In this document: one piece after another, positions 33,001-36,000 of the stretch
Layout of the letters: the number at the start of each line of letters is the position of its first letter
How positions within the stretch are numbered: the first letter of the stretch is position 1
DNA from: Escherichia coli
GTDB taxonomy: Bacteria; Pseudomonadota; Gammaproteobacteria; Enterobacterales; Enterobacteriaceae
Strand: one strand, 5' to 3'
DNA: 64,000 nucleotides
Assembly (NCBI RefSeq): GCF_050320075.1
Contig: NZ_CP190018.1
Program-made: the position numbers

Positions 33001-36000
33001 CGACGGATTGATGTGGGGATAGCCCAGGTCAATCTGGGCTGGAACGGGCACCGTTTTGCGTCCACATGGGCGGCATTTGACCCGTACACCAGTCTGAACA
33101 CGGCGGCGGTCATCCTGAGAGAATGTCGCCGTCGCCATCCTGACAGCTGGCTGCAGGCTGCCGGCTGTTATCACCATCCGGCAGGCGGCGCACCCGCAGT
33201 ACGCTACATCGCGCTGGTGAGGCGGCATATTGACCGCCTCCACCGTGATGCGGTCAGTACGTCAGGTGTGACTGCCATGAATCCCCGTTATATCCGGACA
33301 GAACCCCGGGAGTTAACCCCATGAAACGATTTAAACGATATGTCATGACGACCGCAACGGGTCTGTTGCTGTGCGCGGCTCAGGCCGGCGCGGAGCTCAG
33401 GGTGATTGCTGACCTTGGTGGCAGTGATGCCGGCAGGTTTTATGAAGCAATAAACCGCCAGGCGGACAGCGGAACGTCGTCGCCTGTAACGGCGCTGCTG
33501 CCGCAGGGGGAGAGTGCGATGCTGCCTGTTTCCACGCCGGAAATGTCTCCCGGAGAGGTGACGCCGAGGCCACTGCAGTTACCGGGGCTGGGGGCACTGT
33601 TCCTCGTGGGGGATGATGCACTCTCCCGTCAGTGGCTGCAGGCGAATGCGGCCGCGCTGCTTGAAAGGAAGGCTGCCGGTATGGTGGTGAGCGTGACGAA
33701 TGAGAGCGGTCTGCAGGCGCTGCGGGCGCTGGCTCCCGGTGTGATGATGGTACCGGCTTCCGGTTCAGCACTGGCCCGCCGTCTGCAGCTTGACCACTGG
33801 CCGGTGCTGATAACGGACAGTGGTATCAGCAGTGTGGTGATGCCGTGATGCAGAGACAACTGACGGACCTGTTACAGGAAGGCGCGTGGCACGGCATTCT
33901 GCTGTGCGTTCTGGTCGTGCTGTTTCTGTTTTTTCCGCGCCTGTGGGGGCGATGCAGGCATCGTGAACGCGCCAGTGAGCGTCGTCACCGCCGTTACCGC
34001 GCTGCGGCTGAACGTGTGCTGACAAAGCTGCCGGAAGGTGGGGCGGGTGTGAAATACCTGCGAAAAATTAACCCGTATGTGTTTGAAGAACTGCTGCTTC
34101 TGGCGTTTGAACGCAGGGGGATGGCGGTCATCCGTAACACACGTTACAGCGGAGATGGTGGCCTGGATGGTCAGGTGCTGATTGACGGCGAGCGGTGGCT
34201 GATTCAGGCCAAACGTTACGGACGGACCATCCGTCCGTCACATATTGATGATTTTGGTGACCTGCTGCGCCGTGAAGGCTGCCGTGGATTTTTTATTCAC
34301 ACCGGTCGTACGGGACCGGCCAGCCGGGCACGGCTGGCGCTGTGGCCGGATATTGAGCTGGTCAGCGGGCAGCGTCTGCTGAAACTGCTGAACGGGGCAT
34401 TGCTGCCGGATGAACTTACCAGAGGAGCGCGGAGATGATGACGGTAAAACGGATGTTTATGTTTTTATTCAGAATAACGATTGTCTGGCCATCCGTGCTG
34501 ACAGGATGCGTGATGATGCTGTATTTCGCGAAGGTCGCCGGCGGTGGTGTGGCGGGACTGGAGCAGCGTTACGGGGTGGAATCCGCCCGCTGGCGTGATG
34601 CGCCGGAAGGGATGGTGATGACAGTGCAGTGCCCGTCGCGTCCCTTTATGGCGTCTGTGAGCACCGGGGAGTGGCGTGCACTGGCTGCATCTGATGATGA
34701 ATGCAGCCAGGTTTCGCGCTCTTTCAGAGAAGCTGCAGAGGGCGATGCGCAGTCGCTGCGCAGAGTGGCAGTGACACTGCTGCTGGCATCCGTGGTTCTG
34801 GAAGCGTTTTCAGCCTGCATTCTGCGCCGGGTAACGGCATCCGTCCGGGTATCACCACACTGTGGATATGGCTGCGGACGTGGTGCGGTGGCGCACTGGC
34901 CAGAGAGCAGCGTTCACACTGCACCGGAGAAAGGAGAGCGGGTGTGAACGTTTCATTTACTGAACAGGTGCAGAGGGATATGCCGCAATGGGCGAATGAC
35001 CCGTTACTGGCATGGGATGCCACCGCGTTTGCGGCAATGTCGGATTTTATTACAGAGCACTACTGGACGGGACAGGGCAGCATCAATGTGTTCCGCATTG
35101 TGGGAACTGACCATCCACAGTATGCCGGAATGACCTGGCTGGAGCTGCTGGAGCGCGGTAACCGTATGGACATCAATATCCCGTTACTGGAAAAAAATCC
35201 GGGATACTACACGCAGGCAGAGCAACAGCATGCCGGGATGAGTTTTGTCAGCACGGATGGCGTTGACTGGTATGTCAGTACAGACGGCAATCACCGCAGT
35301 TGCCTGGCCCGCTTTCTGTTTCACCTGCAGGGGGAGGAGCGCACACAGCTTCACAACGTGGCAAAGAGTATTTATCACACAGACCGGGCCTTCTGGTCTG
35401 CCTGCCGGGAAATCCACAACCTGACTGACGCGCTGTCCCGGCATGGTGTGTATATCCGTCTGCAGACCCGACGGCAGTGTGTTGCCCGCGAAGACCTGGC
35501 CTGCTGGAAAGTGGACCGTTTCAGCACAGAGGCGCAGCTGACAGTGGATGACGTGCGTGCCGGCGGACATGATATGCCTGCGGTGTATAAGACGTTGCTG
35601 CTGAATGCGGCAGACGCATGGCGTGAGGTGATGGTATTACAGCGCAGACTGGAGGCGCTGTCTGCATCACCGGGGAACGATTTGCCACGCACATGGTGGC
35701 GACGTCTTTTACGGAAGGGGGACATGTAATGAGCAACCGCTATGTCATTGAGGCATTGCTGAGACCGGCTGTGGAGTTCAATACGGCAGTGGTGGCAGCA
35801 ACAGCAGCATGTATCTGTGTGACAGCCCCCTGGGCGGTGGCGCTGGCACCCACCGTCAGTTACGCCACTGCCGGTGGATTTGCCCTGCTGGCCGTGGTGC
35901 GTTTCCGGCAGGGGATGAACATCATCCGGTATCGCCGTAATCTGCGCCGGCTGCCCCGCTATGTGATGAGTACACGGCAGATCCCGCTCAGCCGTCAGCG

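What the first reader, a model, noticed from the sequence alone, without database searches (positions are those of the whole stretch)
33845..34438. Membrane-anchored Mrr-type nuclease domain encoded inside the mating-pore operon
The 197-aa product has one N-terminal transmembrane helix, a basic linker, then motifs typical of the Mrr catalytic (PD-(D/E)xK) domain (FEELLLLAFERRG, GDGGLDG, IQAKRY). It is ATGA-coupled to its neighbours within the transfer gene cluster. A nuclease tethered to the membrane at the conjugation apparatus could act in exclusion or defence against incoming DNA or in DNA processing; I do not know its role in this ICE family.
Basis: inference. Interest (0 to 1): 0.4.

Follow-up and report, generated by a model that had tools for sequence, protein, structure and literature searches.

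The report
Membrane-tethered Mrr nuclease next to TraD
This is a real gene for a small DNA-cutting enzyme anchored in the inner membrane and encoded inside the DNA-transfer operon of an E. coli mobile island; it belongs to a large uncharacterised family that rides on conjugative plasmids and islands, usually beside their DNA pump, but it is an optional extra rather than a core transfer part.

Summary
Window 33848-34438 (+) encodes a 196-aa protein with one N-terminal membrane helix, an arginine-rich stretch and a complete Mrr-type PD-(D/E)xK nuclease domain (Pfam Mrr_cat, E=1.9e-19). It overlaps both neighbours in the pilL-to-traD operon of an SPI-7/ICEclc-type ICE of E. coli.

The catalytic residues (E80, D103/D107, Q120-x-K122) are invariant in enterobacterial homologs and nearly so across about 50 distant ones. 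The positive-inside rule places the nuclease in the cytoplasm.

The gene is not core transfer machinery. ICEclc and two related E. coli ICEs lack it. Transposon insertions in its pOXA-48 homolog (orf16) affect neither plasmid maintenance nor transfer.

It is not random cargo either. It co-diverges with TraD like other backbone genes. In 61 of 80 loci from diverse bacteria a homolog lies within 5 kb of a coupling-protein gene on the same strand, across several conjugation-system types. It is also a backbone gene of IncN ("mrr") and IncL/M plasmids.

Best reading: an accessory, membrane-tethered nuclease that acts on DNA at the conjugation apparatus, probably in conflict with rival or incoming DNA. 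The function is inferred, not shown. It is a new variant of a known kind, of moderate interest.

The parts
33848..34438 (+). CDS of the membrane-anchored Mrr-type nuclease (196 aa from ATG 33848; the alternative GTG start at 33845 gives 197 aa)
   Evidence: ORF list; RefSeq CDS WP_001189536.1; Pfam Mrr_cat E=1.9e-19; dN/dS about 0.26
33893..33949 (+). Single N-terminal transmembrane helix (residues 16-34, GILLCVLVVLFLFFPRLWG)
   Evidence: Mean Kyte-Doolittle 2.26; AF2 models residues 2-36 as one long helix; 114 of 138 family representatives have an equivalent segment
33950..34015 (+). Arginine-rich juxtamembrane stretch (residues 35-56, RCRHRERASERRHRRYRAAAER), with the conserved RRHRRY motif
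   Evidence: R46, H47 and Y50 invariant; R45 and R49 at least 90% conserved. Median of 6 K/R downstream of the helix against 0 upstream across the family, which indicates an N-out/C-in topology
34058..34390 (+). Mrr_cat (PD-(D/E)xK) nuclease domain
34085..34090 (+). E80-E81 on the first core helix (FEELLLL), the candidate acidic catalytic residue
   Evidence: Invariant in enterobacterial homologs; E80 invariant and E81 at least 90% conserved in distant representatives
34154..34168 (+). D103-G-G-L-D107 of the GDGGLDG motif (metal-binding aspartates)
   Evidence: D103 and D107 invariant; D107 invariant and D103 at least 90% conserved in distant representatives
34205..34213 (+). Q120-A-K122, the Mrr-type QxK version of the (D/E)xK motif
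   Evidence: Invariant in close homologs; Q120 invariant and K122 at least 90% conserved in distant representatives
33321..33848 (+). Upstream gene: DUF2859/PFL_4695-family ICE protein with an apparent N-terminal signal sequence. Its stop codon overlaps the nuclease start.
   Evidence: Pfam and NCBIfam hits. Its ICEclc homolog orf71178 is described as thioredoxin-like with a signal peptide. Natural in-frame fusions to the nuclease exist (P0010, P0004)
34435..34947 (+). Downstream inserted gene 1: small protein (170 aa) with two hydrophobic segments, overlapping the nuclease stop by ATGA
   Evidence: Small multi-TM proteins occupy the same slot in L012, L023 and L024; one was detected by BLAST (L023, 25% identity). 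No family match
34980..35729 (+). Downstream inserted gene 2: 249-aa protein of unknown function, confined to this slot
   Evidence: PGAP CDS; homologs in L002, L003 and L034; invariant DGNHR motif; no family or fold match
35729..37846 (+). traD, the type IV coupling protein. It directly abuts the nuclease gene in most related ICEs.
   Evidence: NCBIfam TIGR03754, 1086.7 bits; PGAP start; no room for an intervening gene in 21 of 34 loci

Best explanation
The gene encodes a catalytically competent nuclease of the Mrr/PD-(D/E)xK type with no DNA-recognition domain. A single N-terminal helix holds it at the inner membrane, with the nuclease domain facing the cytoplasm. It is transcribed and translationally coupled with the ICE's transfer genes, immediately upstream of the coupling protein TraD.

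It is an accessory component, not a piece of the secretion machine. Its most likely job is to cut DNA that appears at the cytoplasmic face of the membrane next to a conjugation apparatus. That DNA could be a rival element's transfer strand being handed to a coupling protein (fertility inhibition). It could also be foreign DNA entering the cell (exclusion, or defence against plasmids and pilus-dependent phages). On this reading, membrane location rather than sequence recognition supplies the specificity.

Shown: domain identity, conservation of catalytic residues, architecture, operon position, lineage-restricted but backbone-like inheritance, and family-wide linkage to coupling-protein and relaxase genes.

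Inferred: topology, nuclease activity, substrate and biological role.

For: Topology: every one of 114 TM-bearing family representatives has more K/R after the helix than before it (median 6 against 0). The natural in-frame fusion P0010 joins an N-terminal hydrophobic segment, the DUF2859 domain, the helix and the nuclease, which fits that orientation.

Co-expression: start and stop codons overlap the neighbours, and no internal terminator was found.

Accessory status:
- ICEclc has DUF2859 directly next to traD and still transfers.
- E. coli M9 and 23AR1183 carry the same T4SS without the gene.
- pOXA-48 orf16 has the same architecture and is 55% identical in the domain. It is called non-essential in both donor and transconjugant Tn-seq libraries (log2FC +0.71, adjusted p 0.25), whereas trb genes collapse in the transconjugants.

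Link to conjugation rather than random cargo:
- It co-diverges with TraD (Spearman 0.81), like DUF2859 (0.83) and SLT (0.85), with dN/dS 0.26.
- In 61 of 80 genome loci a T4CP gene lies on the same strand within 5 kb, at a median distance of 842 bp.
- The linkage spans ICEclc-type ICEs, T4CP-TrwC/MobF modules of Sphingomonadales and Enterobacter, and a Bacteroidota T4CP.
- 2592 plasmids carry a homolog, and 78% of them are typed conjugative.

Positional precedent: in IncN plasmids the slot after T4CP and relaxase holds the fertility inhibitor fipA and nuc. Known fertility inhibitors target coupling proteins (PMC5696584).
Against: No experiment addresses the function of any family member. The only functional data (pOXA-48 Tn-seq) show no phenotype in a plain E. 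coli-to-E. coli mating, so they neither support nor test a conflict role.

A nuclease that faces the cytoplasm without a specificity domain should be dangerous to the host. How self DNA is spared is unexplained.

In IncN and IncL/M plasmids the gene is not adjacent to the coupling protein.

If the operon follows ICEclc regulation, it is expressed only in rare transfer-competent cells, which fits poorly with standing defence of the host.

PADLOC gives only weak matches confined to residues 69-181 and no complete known defence system.

The 78% conjugative figure is inflated by epidemic pOXA-48 and IncN plasmids. The 80 loci were chosen by similarity to the query, not sampled at random.
Confidence: 0.45

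Rival explanations
1. The nuclease is a dedicated helper of the element's own DNA transfer. Sitting beside the coupling protein, it processes the transferred strand, for example by trimming or releasing DNA stalled in the T4CP, or by helping initiation or termination. On this view it raises transfer efficiency under natural conditions without being strictly required.
For: It abuts or overlaps traD in 21 of 34 ICE loci. It follows the T4CP-relaxase pair in MOBF elements and a T4CP in Crocinitomix. It is inherited like a backbone gene and is co-expressed with the transfer genes.
Against: Related ICEs with the same T4SS lack it. Disruption of the pOXA-48 homolog does not reduce transfer; log2FC is slightly positive. 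In IncN and IncL/M plasmids it lies away from the DNA-processing genes. Relaxases already perform nicking and rejoining.
Confidence: 0.22
2. It is ordinary anti-phage cargo: a minimal, type IV-like restriction nuclease that happens to be carried by mobile elements and protects the host cell, with no functional tie to conjugation.
For: The catalytic domain is shared with Mrr, MspJI and AspBHI modification-dependent enzymes. There are weak PADLOC matches to mREase_IV and PDC-S02. The pOXA-48 authors label orf16 'Host defense'. In IncN it sits next to the EcoRII restriction-modification system.
Against: It has no DNA or modification-recognition domain. It holds a fixed position inside a transfer operon and co-diverges with TraD, rather than showing the patchy, exchangeable pattern of defence cargo. 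The T4CP linkage spans unrelated element families. No match to a complete known defence system was found.
Confidence: 0.2
3. The domain is catalytically inert and serves as a structural or anchoring subunit, for example a membrane adaptor for TraD or DUF2859.
For: There is a weak sub-threshold match to the 'inactive restriction endonuclease' family NA-iREase1 (17.9 bits against a cut-off of 27). Natural fusions to DUF2859 exist.
Against: All residues of the E...D...QxK catalytic constellation are invariant or nearly so across the family. One representative shown in the 50-sequence alignment, P0145, departs at D103 and K122. The NA-iREase1 hit is below threshold.
Confidence: 0.06

Closest known systems
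'mrr' of IncN plasmids (N3, R46, pKOX105 type; WP_015344958.1) and Orf16 of IncL pOXA-48 (WP_004187392.1)
   Same: They belong to the same protein family and share the architecture: N-terminal TM helix, arginine-rich stretch with an RRH/HRRH motif, then Mrr_cat with YLRKI(D/N)P(F/Y)VFEELLL, GDGG(I/L)DG, LIQAKRY and HTG(R/K)T. They are 51-55% identical over the domain. Both are carried on conjugative elements and both are functionally uncharacterised.
   Different: The plasmid copies are not inside the T4SS operon or next to the coupling protein. In IncN the gene lies after kikA, next to EcoRII. In pOXA-48 it lies after a small XRE regulator and before resD and parAB. pOXA-48 orf16 has Tn-seq data showing it is dispensable. 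No such data exist for the ICE copy.
Type IV modification-dependent restriction enzymes with an Mrr-type nuclease domain (E. coli Mrr, MspJI, AspBHI; also the N-terminal nuclease of LlaBIII)
   Different: Those enzymes are soluble and carry a separate DNA or modification-reading domain. This protein has none; a membrane anchor takes its place. There is no sequence-level match to any solved structure.
Fertility-inhibition factors of conjugative plasmids (Osa of pSa/R388, FipA of pKM101, PifC of F)
   Same: They are accessory genes of conjugative elements, often encoded next to DNA-processing genes (fipA follows traJ-traI in IncN), and they act on rivals through the coupling protein (PMC5696584). 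From my own knowledge of Maindola et al. 2014, which I did not read here, Osa is a DNase that degrades T-DNA before translocation and associates with the inner membrane.
   Different: From background knowledge, Osa has a ParB/sulfiredoxin fold, which differs from the PD-(D/E)xK fold found here. No inhibition phenotype has been tested for this family. The resemblance is one of position and logic only.
Other nucleases tied to DNA-transport machines: Nuc (phospholipase-D family) of pKM101 and IncL/M plasmids, and membrane-anchored EndA/NucA of competence systems
   Same: They are nucleases encoded with, or working beside, a DNA translocation apparatus. Plasmid Nuc is likewise dispensable (a nuc deletion has no stability phenotype in pOXA-48).
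   Different: From background knowledge, they have unrelated folds and face the periplasm or the outside. This protein is predicted to face the cytoplasm.

Membership tests
Pfam Mrr_cat (PF04471) / PD-(D/E)xK restriction-endonuclease-like superfamily | Sequence match to the curated family model above its gathering score | tested here: met
   70.3 bits against a cut-off of 21, E=1.9e-19, covering profile positions 1-115 of 115
Pfam Mrr_cat (PF04471) / PD-(D/E)xK restriction-endonuclease-like superfamily | Catalytic constellation: acidic residue on the first helix, D on the first core strand region, and (D/E/Q)xK on the next strand | tested here: met
   E80/E81, D103/D107 and Q120-A-K122 are invariant in 26 close homologs. 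E80, D107 and Q120 are invariant, and D103 and K122 at least 90% conserved, in 50 distant representatives
Pfam Mrr_cat (PF04471) / PD-(D/E)xK restriction-endonuclease-like superfamily | Alpha/beta restriction-endonuclease-like fold | tested here: met
Pfam Mrr_cat (PF04471) / PD-(D/E)xK restriction-endonuclease-like superfamily | Metal-dependent nuclease activity | not testable with these tools
   Requires biochemistry on the purified domain
Type IV restriction enzyme of the Mrr kind | N-terminal DNA or modification-recognition domain (winged helix Mrr_N or equivalent) joined to the nuclease | tested here: not met
   No domain other than Mrr_cat was detected. Residues 1-71 are a TM helix, a basic stretch and one or two helices
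Type IV restriction enzyme of the Mrr kind | Restriction of modified foreign DNA | not testable with these tools
   Needs phage or plasmid restriction assays
Core transfer genes of PFGI-1/ICEclc/SPI-7-class ICEs (MPF_G T4SS) | Present throughout the ICE class, including the experimental model ICEclc | tested here: not met
   In ICEclc, orf71178 (DUF2859) is directly next to traD/iceD4. E. coli M9 and 23AR1183 ICEs lack the gene
Core transfer genes of PFGI-1/ICEclc/SPI-7-class ICEs (MPF_G T4SS) | Covered by one of the curated ICE-specific family models (TIGR037xx series) | tested here: not met
   No NCBIfam hit, while the neighbours hit TIGR03748, 03759, 03765, 03754 and 03747
Core transfer genes of PFGI-1/ICEclc/SPI-7-class ICEs (MPF_G T4SS) | Required for conjugative transfer | not testable with these tools
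   Only indirect evidence exists: the pOXA-48 homolog is dispensable for transfer
Fertility-inhibition / plasmid-conflict factors acting at the coupling protein | Accessory gene of conjugative elements, lineage-restricted, encoded near T4CP or relaxase genes | tested here: met
   61 of 80 loci have a T4CP within 5 kb on the same strand. The gene is absent from sister ICEs. It occupies the same slot as fipA in IncN-like MOBF modules
Fertility-inhibition / plasmid-conflict factors acting at the coupling protein | Reduces transfer of a co-resident or incoming rival element | not testable with these tools
   Needs mating assays with rival plasmids
Known anti-phage defence systems (PADLOC-DB) | Full-length match to a protein of a described system, with that system's partner genes nearby | tested here: not met
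   Only weak matches confined to the nuclease domain (best PDC-S02, 8.7e-07; mREase_IV, 3.4e-05). The neighbours have no hits

The most novel reading that the evidence does not exclude
Membrane-tethered minimal Mrr nucleases may form a widespread, unrecognised class of conjugation-conflict effectors. On this reading they are co-expressed with a coupling protein and positioned at the membrane by a single helix. They would destroy DNA that rival plasmids or ICEs present to, or pass through, a T4SS, or DNA injected by pilus-dependent phages. Location, not sequence recognition, would tell self from non-self. Because the family is a backbone gene of pOXA-48 and IncN resistance plasmids, it could shape which resistance plasmids can coexist or spread.
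Probability: 0.25. Interest if true: 0.7.

Novelty: new variant of a known kind. Interest (0 to 1): 0.42.

Why it matters
The catalytic domain is ordinary, but the packaging and the company it keeps are not described anywhere I could find. It is a nuclease without a recognition domain, tethered by one helix to the inner membrane. It recurs beside coupling-protein and relaxase genes in ICEs and plasmids of several conjugation-system types (MPF_G, MPF_T and MPF_I as typed by PLSDB or the literature) and in a Bacteroidota element.

The family sits on the backbone of clinically dominant resistance plasmids (pOXA-48, IncN) and of SPI-7-type islands, yet it has no known function and no phenotype in the one screen that covered it.

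If it is a conflict nuclease, it would add an enzymatic, location-based mechanism to plasmid-plasmid competition or exclusion, and the idea is directly testable with simple mating assays. If it turns out to be plain defence cargo or a minor helper, the finding is routine.

Tried and rejected
1. Toxin/regulator idea. I first suspected that the essential XRE regulator orf20 of pOXA-48 represses the nuclease. The supplement shows the nuclease is orf16, preceded by a different XRE gene (orf15), and both are non-essential. No toxin-antitoxin relationship is supported.

2. hyp249 (34980-35729) as an Osa-like ParB/Srx nuclease, based on its invariant DGNHR motif. I found no Pfam, PHROG, PADLOC or PDB-sequence hit. 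The AF2 model is poor in that region (pLDDT 67.5). Foldseek gave nothing and hhalign against a ParB_N-containing KorB gave probability 0.2%. Not supported.

3. hyp170 as a lipoprotein or entry-exclusion protein, based on an LTGC 'lipobox'. The related proteins in the same slot lack the Cys and look like multi-TM proteins. Dropped.

4. Mrr-SLT fusion protein in Vibrio pHZ52-3. This is a frameshift in a low-quality assembly; the two genes are merely adjacent.

5. Inactive nuclease (NA-iREase1). The match is below threshold and the catalytic residues are conserved.

6. Sequence searches of the PDB, with the protein and with a family profile, found nothing significant.

7. MOBC-type PD-(D/E)xK relaxase. 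I considered this only from the review text. I set it aside because the Mrr_cat assignment is strong, the protein has a TM anchor, and the MOBF loci encode their own TrwC/MobF relaxase next to it. It was not formally tested.

8. Literature hits for 'Mrr' in the pCTX-M3 review refer to 'multiple resistance region' and are irrelevant. No paper describing this family's function was found.

9. I could not retrieve a baseline for the fraction of conjugative plasmids in PLSDB. The 78% figure is therefore reported without a formal enrichment test.
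Full report
**1. What is there**

The window is 100% identical over the 3-kb stretch 33000-36000 to the chromosome of E. coli YZLc1-3. There the region belongs to an SPI-7/PFGI-1 (ICEclc)-class integrative conjugative element. The element starts at a tRNA-Ser next to the kps capsule genes and carries dnaB-PI, ParB, topoisomerase III, the TIGR037xx ICE gene set, traD and a VirB4-like ATPase.

RefSeq annotates the same frame from ATG 33848 (196 aa, 'restriction endonuclease').

Pfam places a full-length Mrr_cat domain at residues 72-182 (E=1.9e-19, 70.3 bits against a cut-off of 21). NCBIfam has no model for the protein, whereas its neighbours all hit ICE-specific models: PilL2, TIGR03759, PFL_4695/DUF2859, TraD TIGR03754 and TIGR03747.

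The upstream stop overlaps the start, and the downstream start overlaps the stop (ATGA). A consensus scan finds a strong terminator before pilL (30487-30510) and nothing convincing inside the pilL-to-traD run. The gene is therefore best read as part of one operon.

**2. Structure and active site**

An AlphaFold2 model built on 26 homologs (mean pLDDT 83) shows one long N-terminal helix (residues 2-36), a second helix (42-60) and then an alpha/beta core.

In 26-30 enterobacterial homologs, E80, E81, D103, D107, Q120 and K122 are invariant. In 50 representatives of clusters sharing only 34-48% identity with the query, E80, D107 and Q120 are invariant, and D103 and K122 are at least 90% conserved. 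The enzyme is most likely active.

**3. Membrane anchor and orientation**

Residues 16-34 form the only strongly hydrophobic segment. Eight K/R follow it within 15 residues, against one before it.

Across 138 family representatives, 114 have such a segment. The median K/R count is 0 upstream and 6 downstream, and every one of the 114 is more positive downstream. By the positive-inside rule the nuclease domain is cytoplasmic and the short N-terminus periplasmic. This is an inference, not a measurement.

Two natural in-frame fusions to the upstream DUF2859 protein exist (P0010, seen on 4 contigs, and P0004). In P0010 an N-terminal hydrophobic segment and the DUF2859 domain precede the helix and the nuclease, an order that is topologically coherent with this orientation.

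**4. Core part or accessory?**

Three lines of evidence say accessory.

- In ICEclc, the experimental model for this T4SS, the DUF2859 gene (orf71178) lies directly next to traD/iceD4 with no gene between them. The transfer-gene deletions reported there account for conjugation without such a nuclease (PMC10018362).
- Other E. coli ICEs with the same gene set lack it. Strain M9 has DUF2859, a repeat tract and then traD. Strain 23AR1183 goes straight from SLT to traD.
- The pOXA-48 homolog orf16 has the same architecture and is 55% identical in the domain. It is called non-essential in the donor library and is not depleted in transconjugants (mean reads 155 to 256, log2FC +0.71, adjusted p 0.25). 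The trb genes in the same table fall from about 400-500 reads to about 10 (PMC12365149 supplement).

**5. It is not loose cargo either**

In all 30 enterobacterial genome loci that were long enough, the order is SLT, DUF2859, nuclease, traD. These span Serratia, Erwinia, Pantoea, Photorhabdus, Xenorhabdus, Morganella, Pectobacterium, Brenneria, Hafnia and others.

Pairwise divergence of the nuclease tracks that of TraD (Spearman 0.81), as it does for DUF2859 (0.83) and SLT (0.85). dN/dS is about 0.26, against 0.24-0.36 for the neighbours and 0.05 for TraD. The pairs used are near synonymous saturation, so these are rough values.

In 21 of 34 loci there is no room for another gene between the nuclease and traD. 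The two genes that separate them in this window (34435-34947 and 34980-35729) are insertions seen in only some relatives.

**6. The family beyond this ICE**

An exhaustive profile-free search finds 1464 clusters at 50% identity (622 at E≤1e-10). Nearly all listed members are 160-250 aa and match from the N-terminal region to about residue 182.

A scan of one genome per species returned 80 loci.

- In Shewanella and Photobacterium the gene again sits immediately upstream of a 43-45% identical TraD.
- In about 24 Sphingomonadales loci, and in an Enterobacter MOBF plasmid, the order is T4CP (TrwB type), TrwC/MobF relaxase, nuclease. In the sphingomonads an SLT-like protein with an N-terminal hydrophobic leader follows.
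- In a Crocinitomix contig the gene directly follows a T4CP.
- Elsewhere it lies next to topoisomerase III, ParA-KorB or primase-like genes.

Overall, 61 of 80 loci have a T4CP gene on the same strand within 5 kb, at a median distance of 842 bp.

In the plasmid collection, 2592 records carry a homolog, and 2022 of them are typed conjugative. This count is dominated by IncL pOXA-48 and IncN plasmids, where the gene is a backbone gene annotated 'restriction endonuclease' or 'mrr'. That clonal bias, and the similarity-based choice of the 80 loci, mean these proportions describe the data and are not a formal enrichment test.

**7. Mechanism**

The shown facts are these:
- an apparently active Mrr-type nuclease domain;
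- no recognition domain;
- a single-helix membrane tether with a predicted cytoplasmic orientation;
- co-expression with transfer genes;
- recurrent placement beside the coupling protein or relaxase;
- dispensability for transfer where this has been examined.

The reading that fits all of them best is an accessory nuclease that works at the cytoplasmic face of the membrane, where conjugative DNA is handed to or emerges from a T4SS. It would be directed against DNA other than the element's own, through fertility inhibition of co-resident rivals, or through destruction of incoming plasmid or phage DNA.

Precedents exist. Fertility-inhibition factors are accessory, lineage-restricted genes of conjugative plasmids that target rival coupling proteins (PMC5696584). 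In IncN plasmids fipA and nuc occupy the slot after the T4CP and relaxase genes, which is the slot this nuclease holds in MOBF elements. From my own knowledge, not read here, Osa is a DNase that degrades T-DNA before translocation.

I give this reading 0.45. The main rivals are a helper of the element's own DNA processing (0.22), generic anti-phage cargo (0.20) and an inert structural subunit (0.06). How a recognition-less cytoplasmic nuclease spares the host chromosome is unexplained under every reading.

**8. Comparison with known families**

The protein is a member of Pfam Mrr_cat; sequence, catalytic residues and fold were all tested and met.

It is not a type IV restriction enzyme of the Mrr kind, because the defining recognition domain is absent. 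It is not a core gene of the ICEclc-class T4SS, because it is absent from class members and has no ICE family model. It matches no complete known defence system.

It resembles fertility-inhibition factors only in genomic position and logic. Their defining phenotype could not be tested here.

**9. Novelty and score**

The gene is annotated in thousands of records, and one paper tabulates its homolog as 'restriction nuclease / host defense' without comment. Its existence is therefore known.

I found no description of three things:
- the architecture as a distinct family;
- its predicted topology;
- its recurrent linkage to coupling proteins across conjugation-system types.

I rate it a new variant of a known kind, with interest 0.42. 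It is worth a simple set of mating and phage assays, especially because pOXA-48 and IncN plasmids carry it. Nothing here forces a surprising mechanism.

Noticed in passing
window 34435-34947 (+): A 170-aa protein with an N-terminal and a C-terminal hydrophobic segment, overlapping the nuclease stop (ATGA). Small multi-TM proteins fill the same nuclease-traD slot in some other ICEs (L012, L023, L024) and share short motifs (IVWP..., AP.G). BLAST detects only one of them (L023, 25% identity). No database family matches. An apparent lipobox (LTGC) is not conserved.
   Followed up: partly
window 34980-35729 (+): A 249-aa protein found only in this slot (also in Serratia L002 and L003 and Erwinia L034), with an invariant D-G-N-H-R motif. 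There is no Pfam, PHROG, PADLOC, PDB or fold match, and the AF2 model is poor in the motif region. A ParB/Srx-like (Osa-like) nuclease was suspected but not supported.
   Followed up: yes
proteins P0010 (340 aa) and P0004 (276 aa), homologs of window 33321-34438: Natural in-frame fusions of the upstream DUF2859 protein to the nuclease. In the alignment, P0010 joins the two at a shared 'PVL' tripeptide. The domain order (DUF2859, helix, nuclease) is coherent with the predicted topology and hints that the two proteins may work together.
   Followed up: partly
L084 4416-4985 (E. coli M9 ICE, between DUF2859 and traD): Where this ICE has the nuclease gene, a related E. coli ICE has a tandemly repetitive tract, annotated on the opposite strand as a hypothetical protein made of GVSTGNSAQNL-like repeats.
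   Followed up: no
L035-L081 (Sphingomonadales loci), L087 (Enterobacter plasmid), L089 (Vibrio plasmid): A recurring module of T4CP, TrwC/MobF relaxase and membrane-anchored Mrr nuclease. In the sphingomonad loci an SLT-like protein with an N-terminal hydrophobic leader follows (DLGPLQIN motif, missed by Pfam at E<0.001). In the Vibrio plasmid the nuclease gene is frameshifted and mis-annotated as part of the following SLT gene.
   Followed up: partly
window about 26390-30420: An IS66-family element (ISCro1: tnpA, tnpB and transposase) splits an Rpn-family recombination-promoting nuclease gene. A second copy of the Rpn C-terminal end follows at 30154-30420.
   Followed up: no
window 9821-9898 (-) and 1-8629: A tRNA-Ser marks the left end of the ICE, directly beside a group 2 capsule (kps) cluster. 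The ICE runs past the right end of the window, so its relaxase and integrase end were not examined.
   Followed up: no
window about 60399-60908 (+) and about 53574-53837 (+): The ICE also carries an ArdA antirestriction gene and a type-B ribosomal protein L31 paralog among small unknown genes downstream of the T4SS cluster.
   Followed up: no
L082 6625-7935 (pOXA-48): In pOXA-48 the nuclease homolog (orf16) is preceded by an overlapping 82-aa XRE-type regulator (orf15). It is followed by an overlapping 161-aa protein with a typical lipoprotein signal (LLTGC). All three are non-essential in the published Tn-seq.
   Followed up: partly
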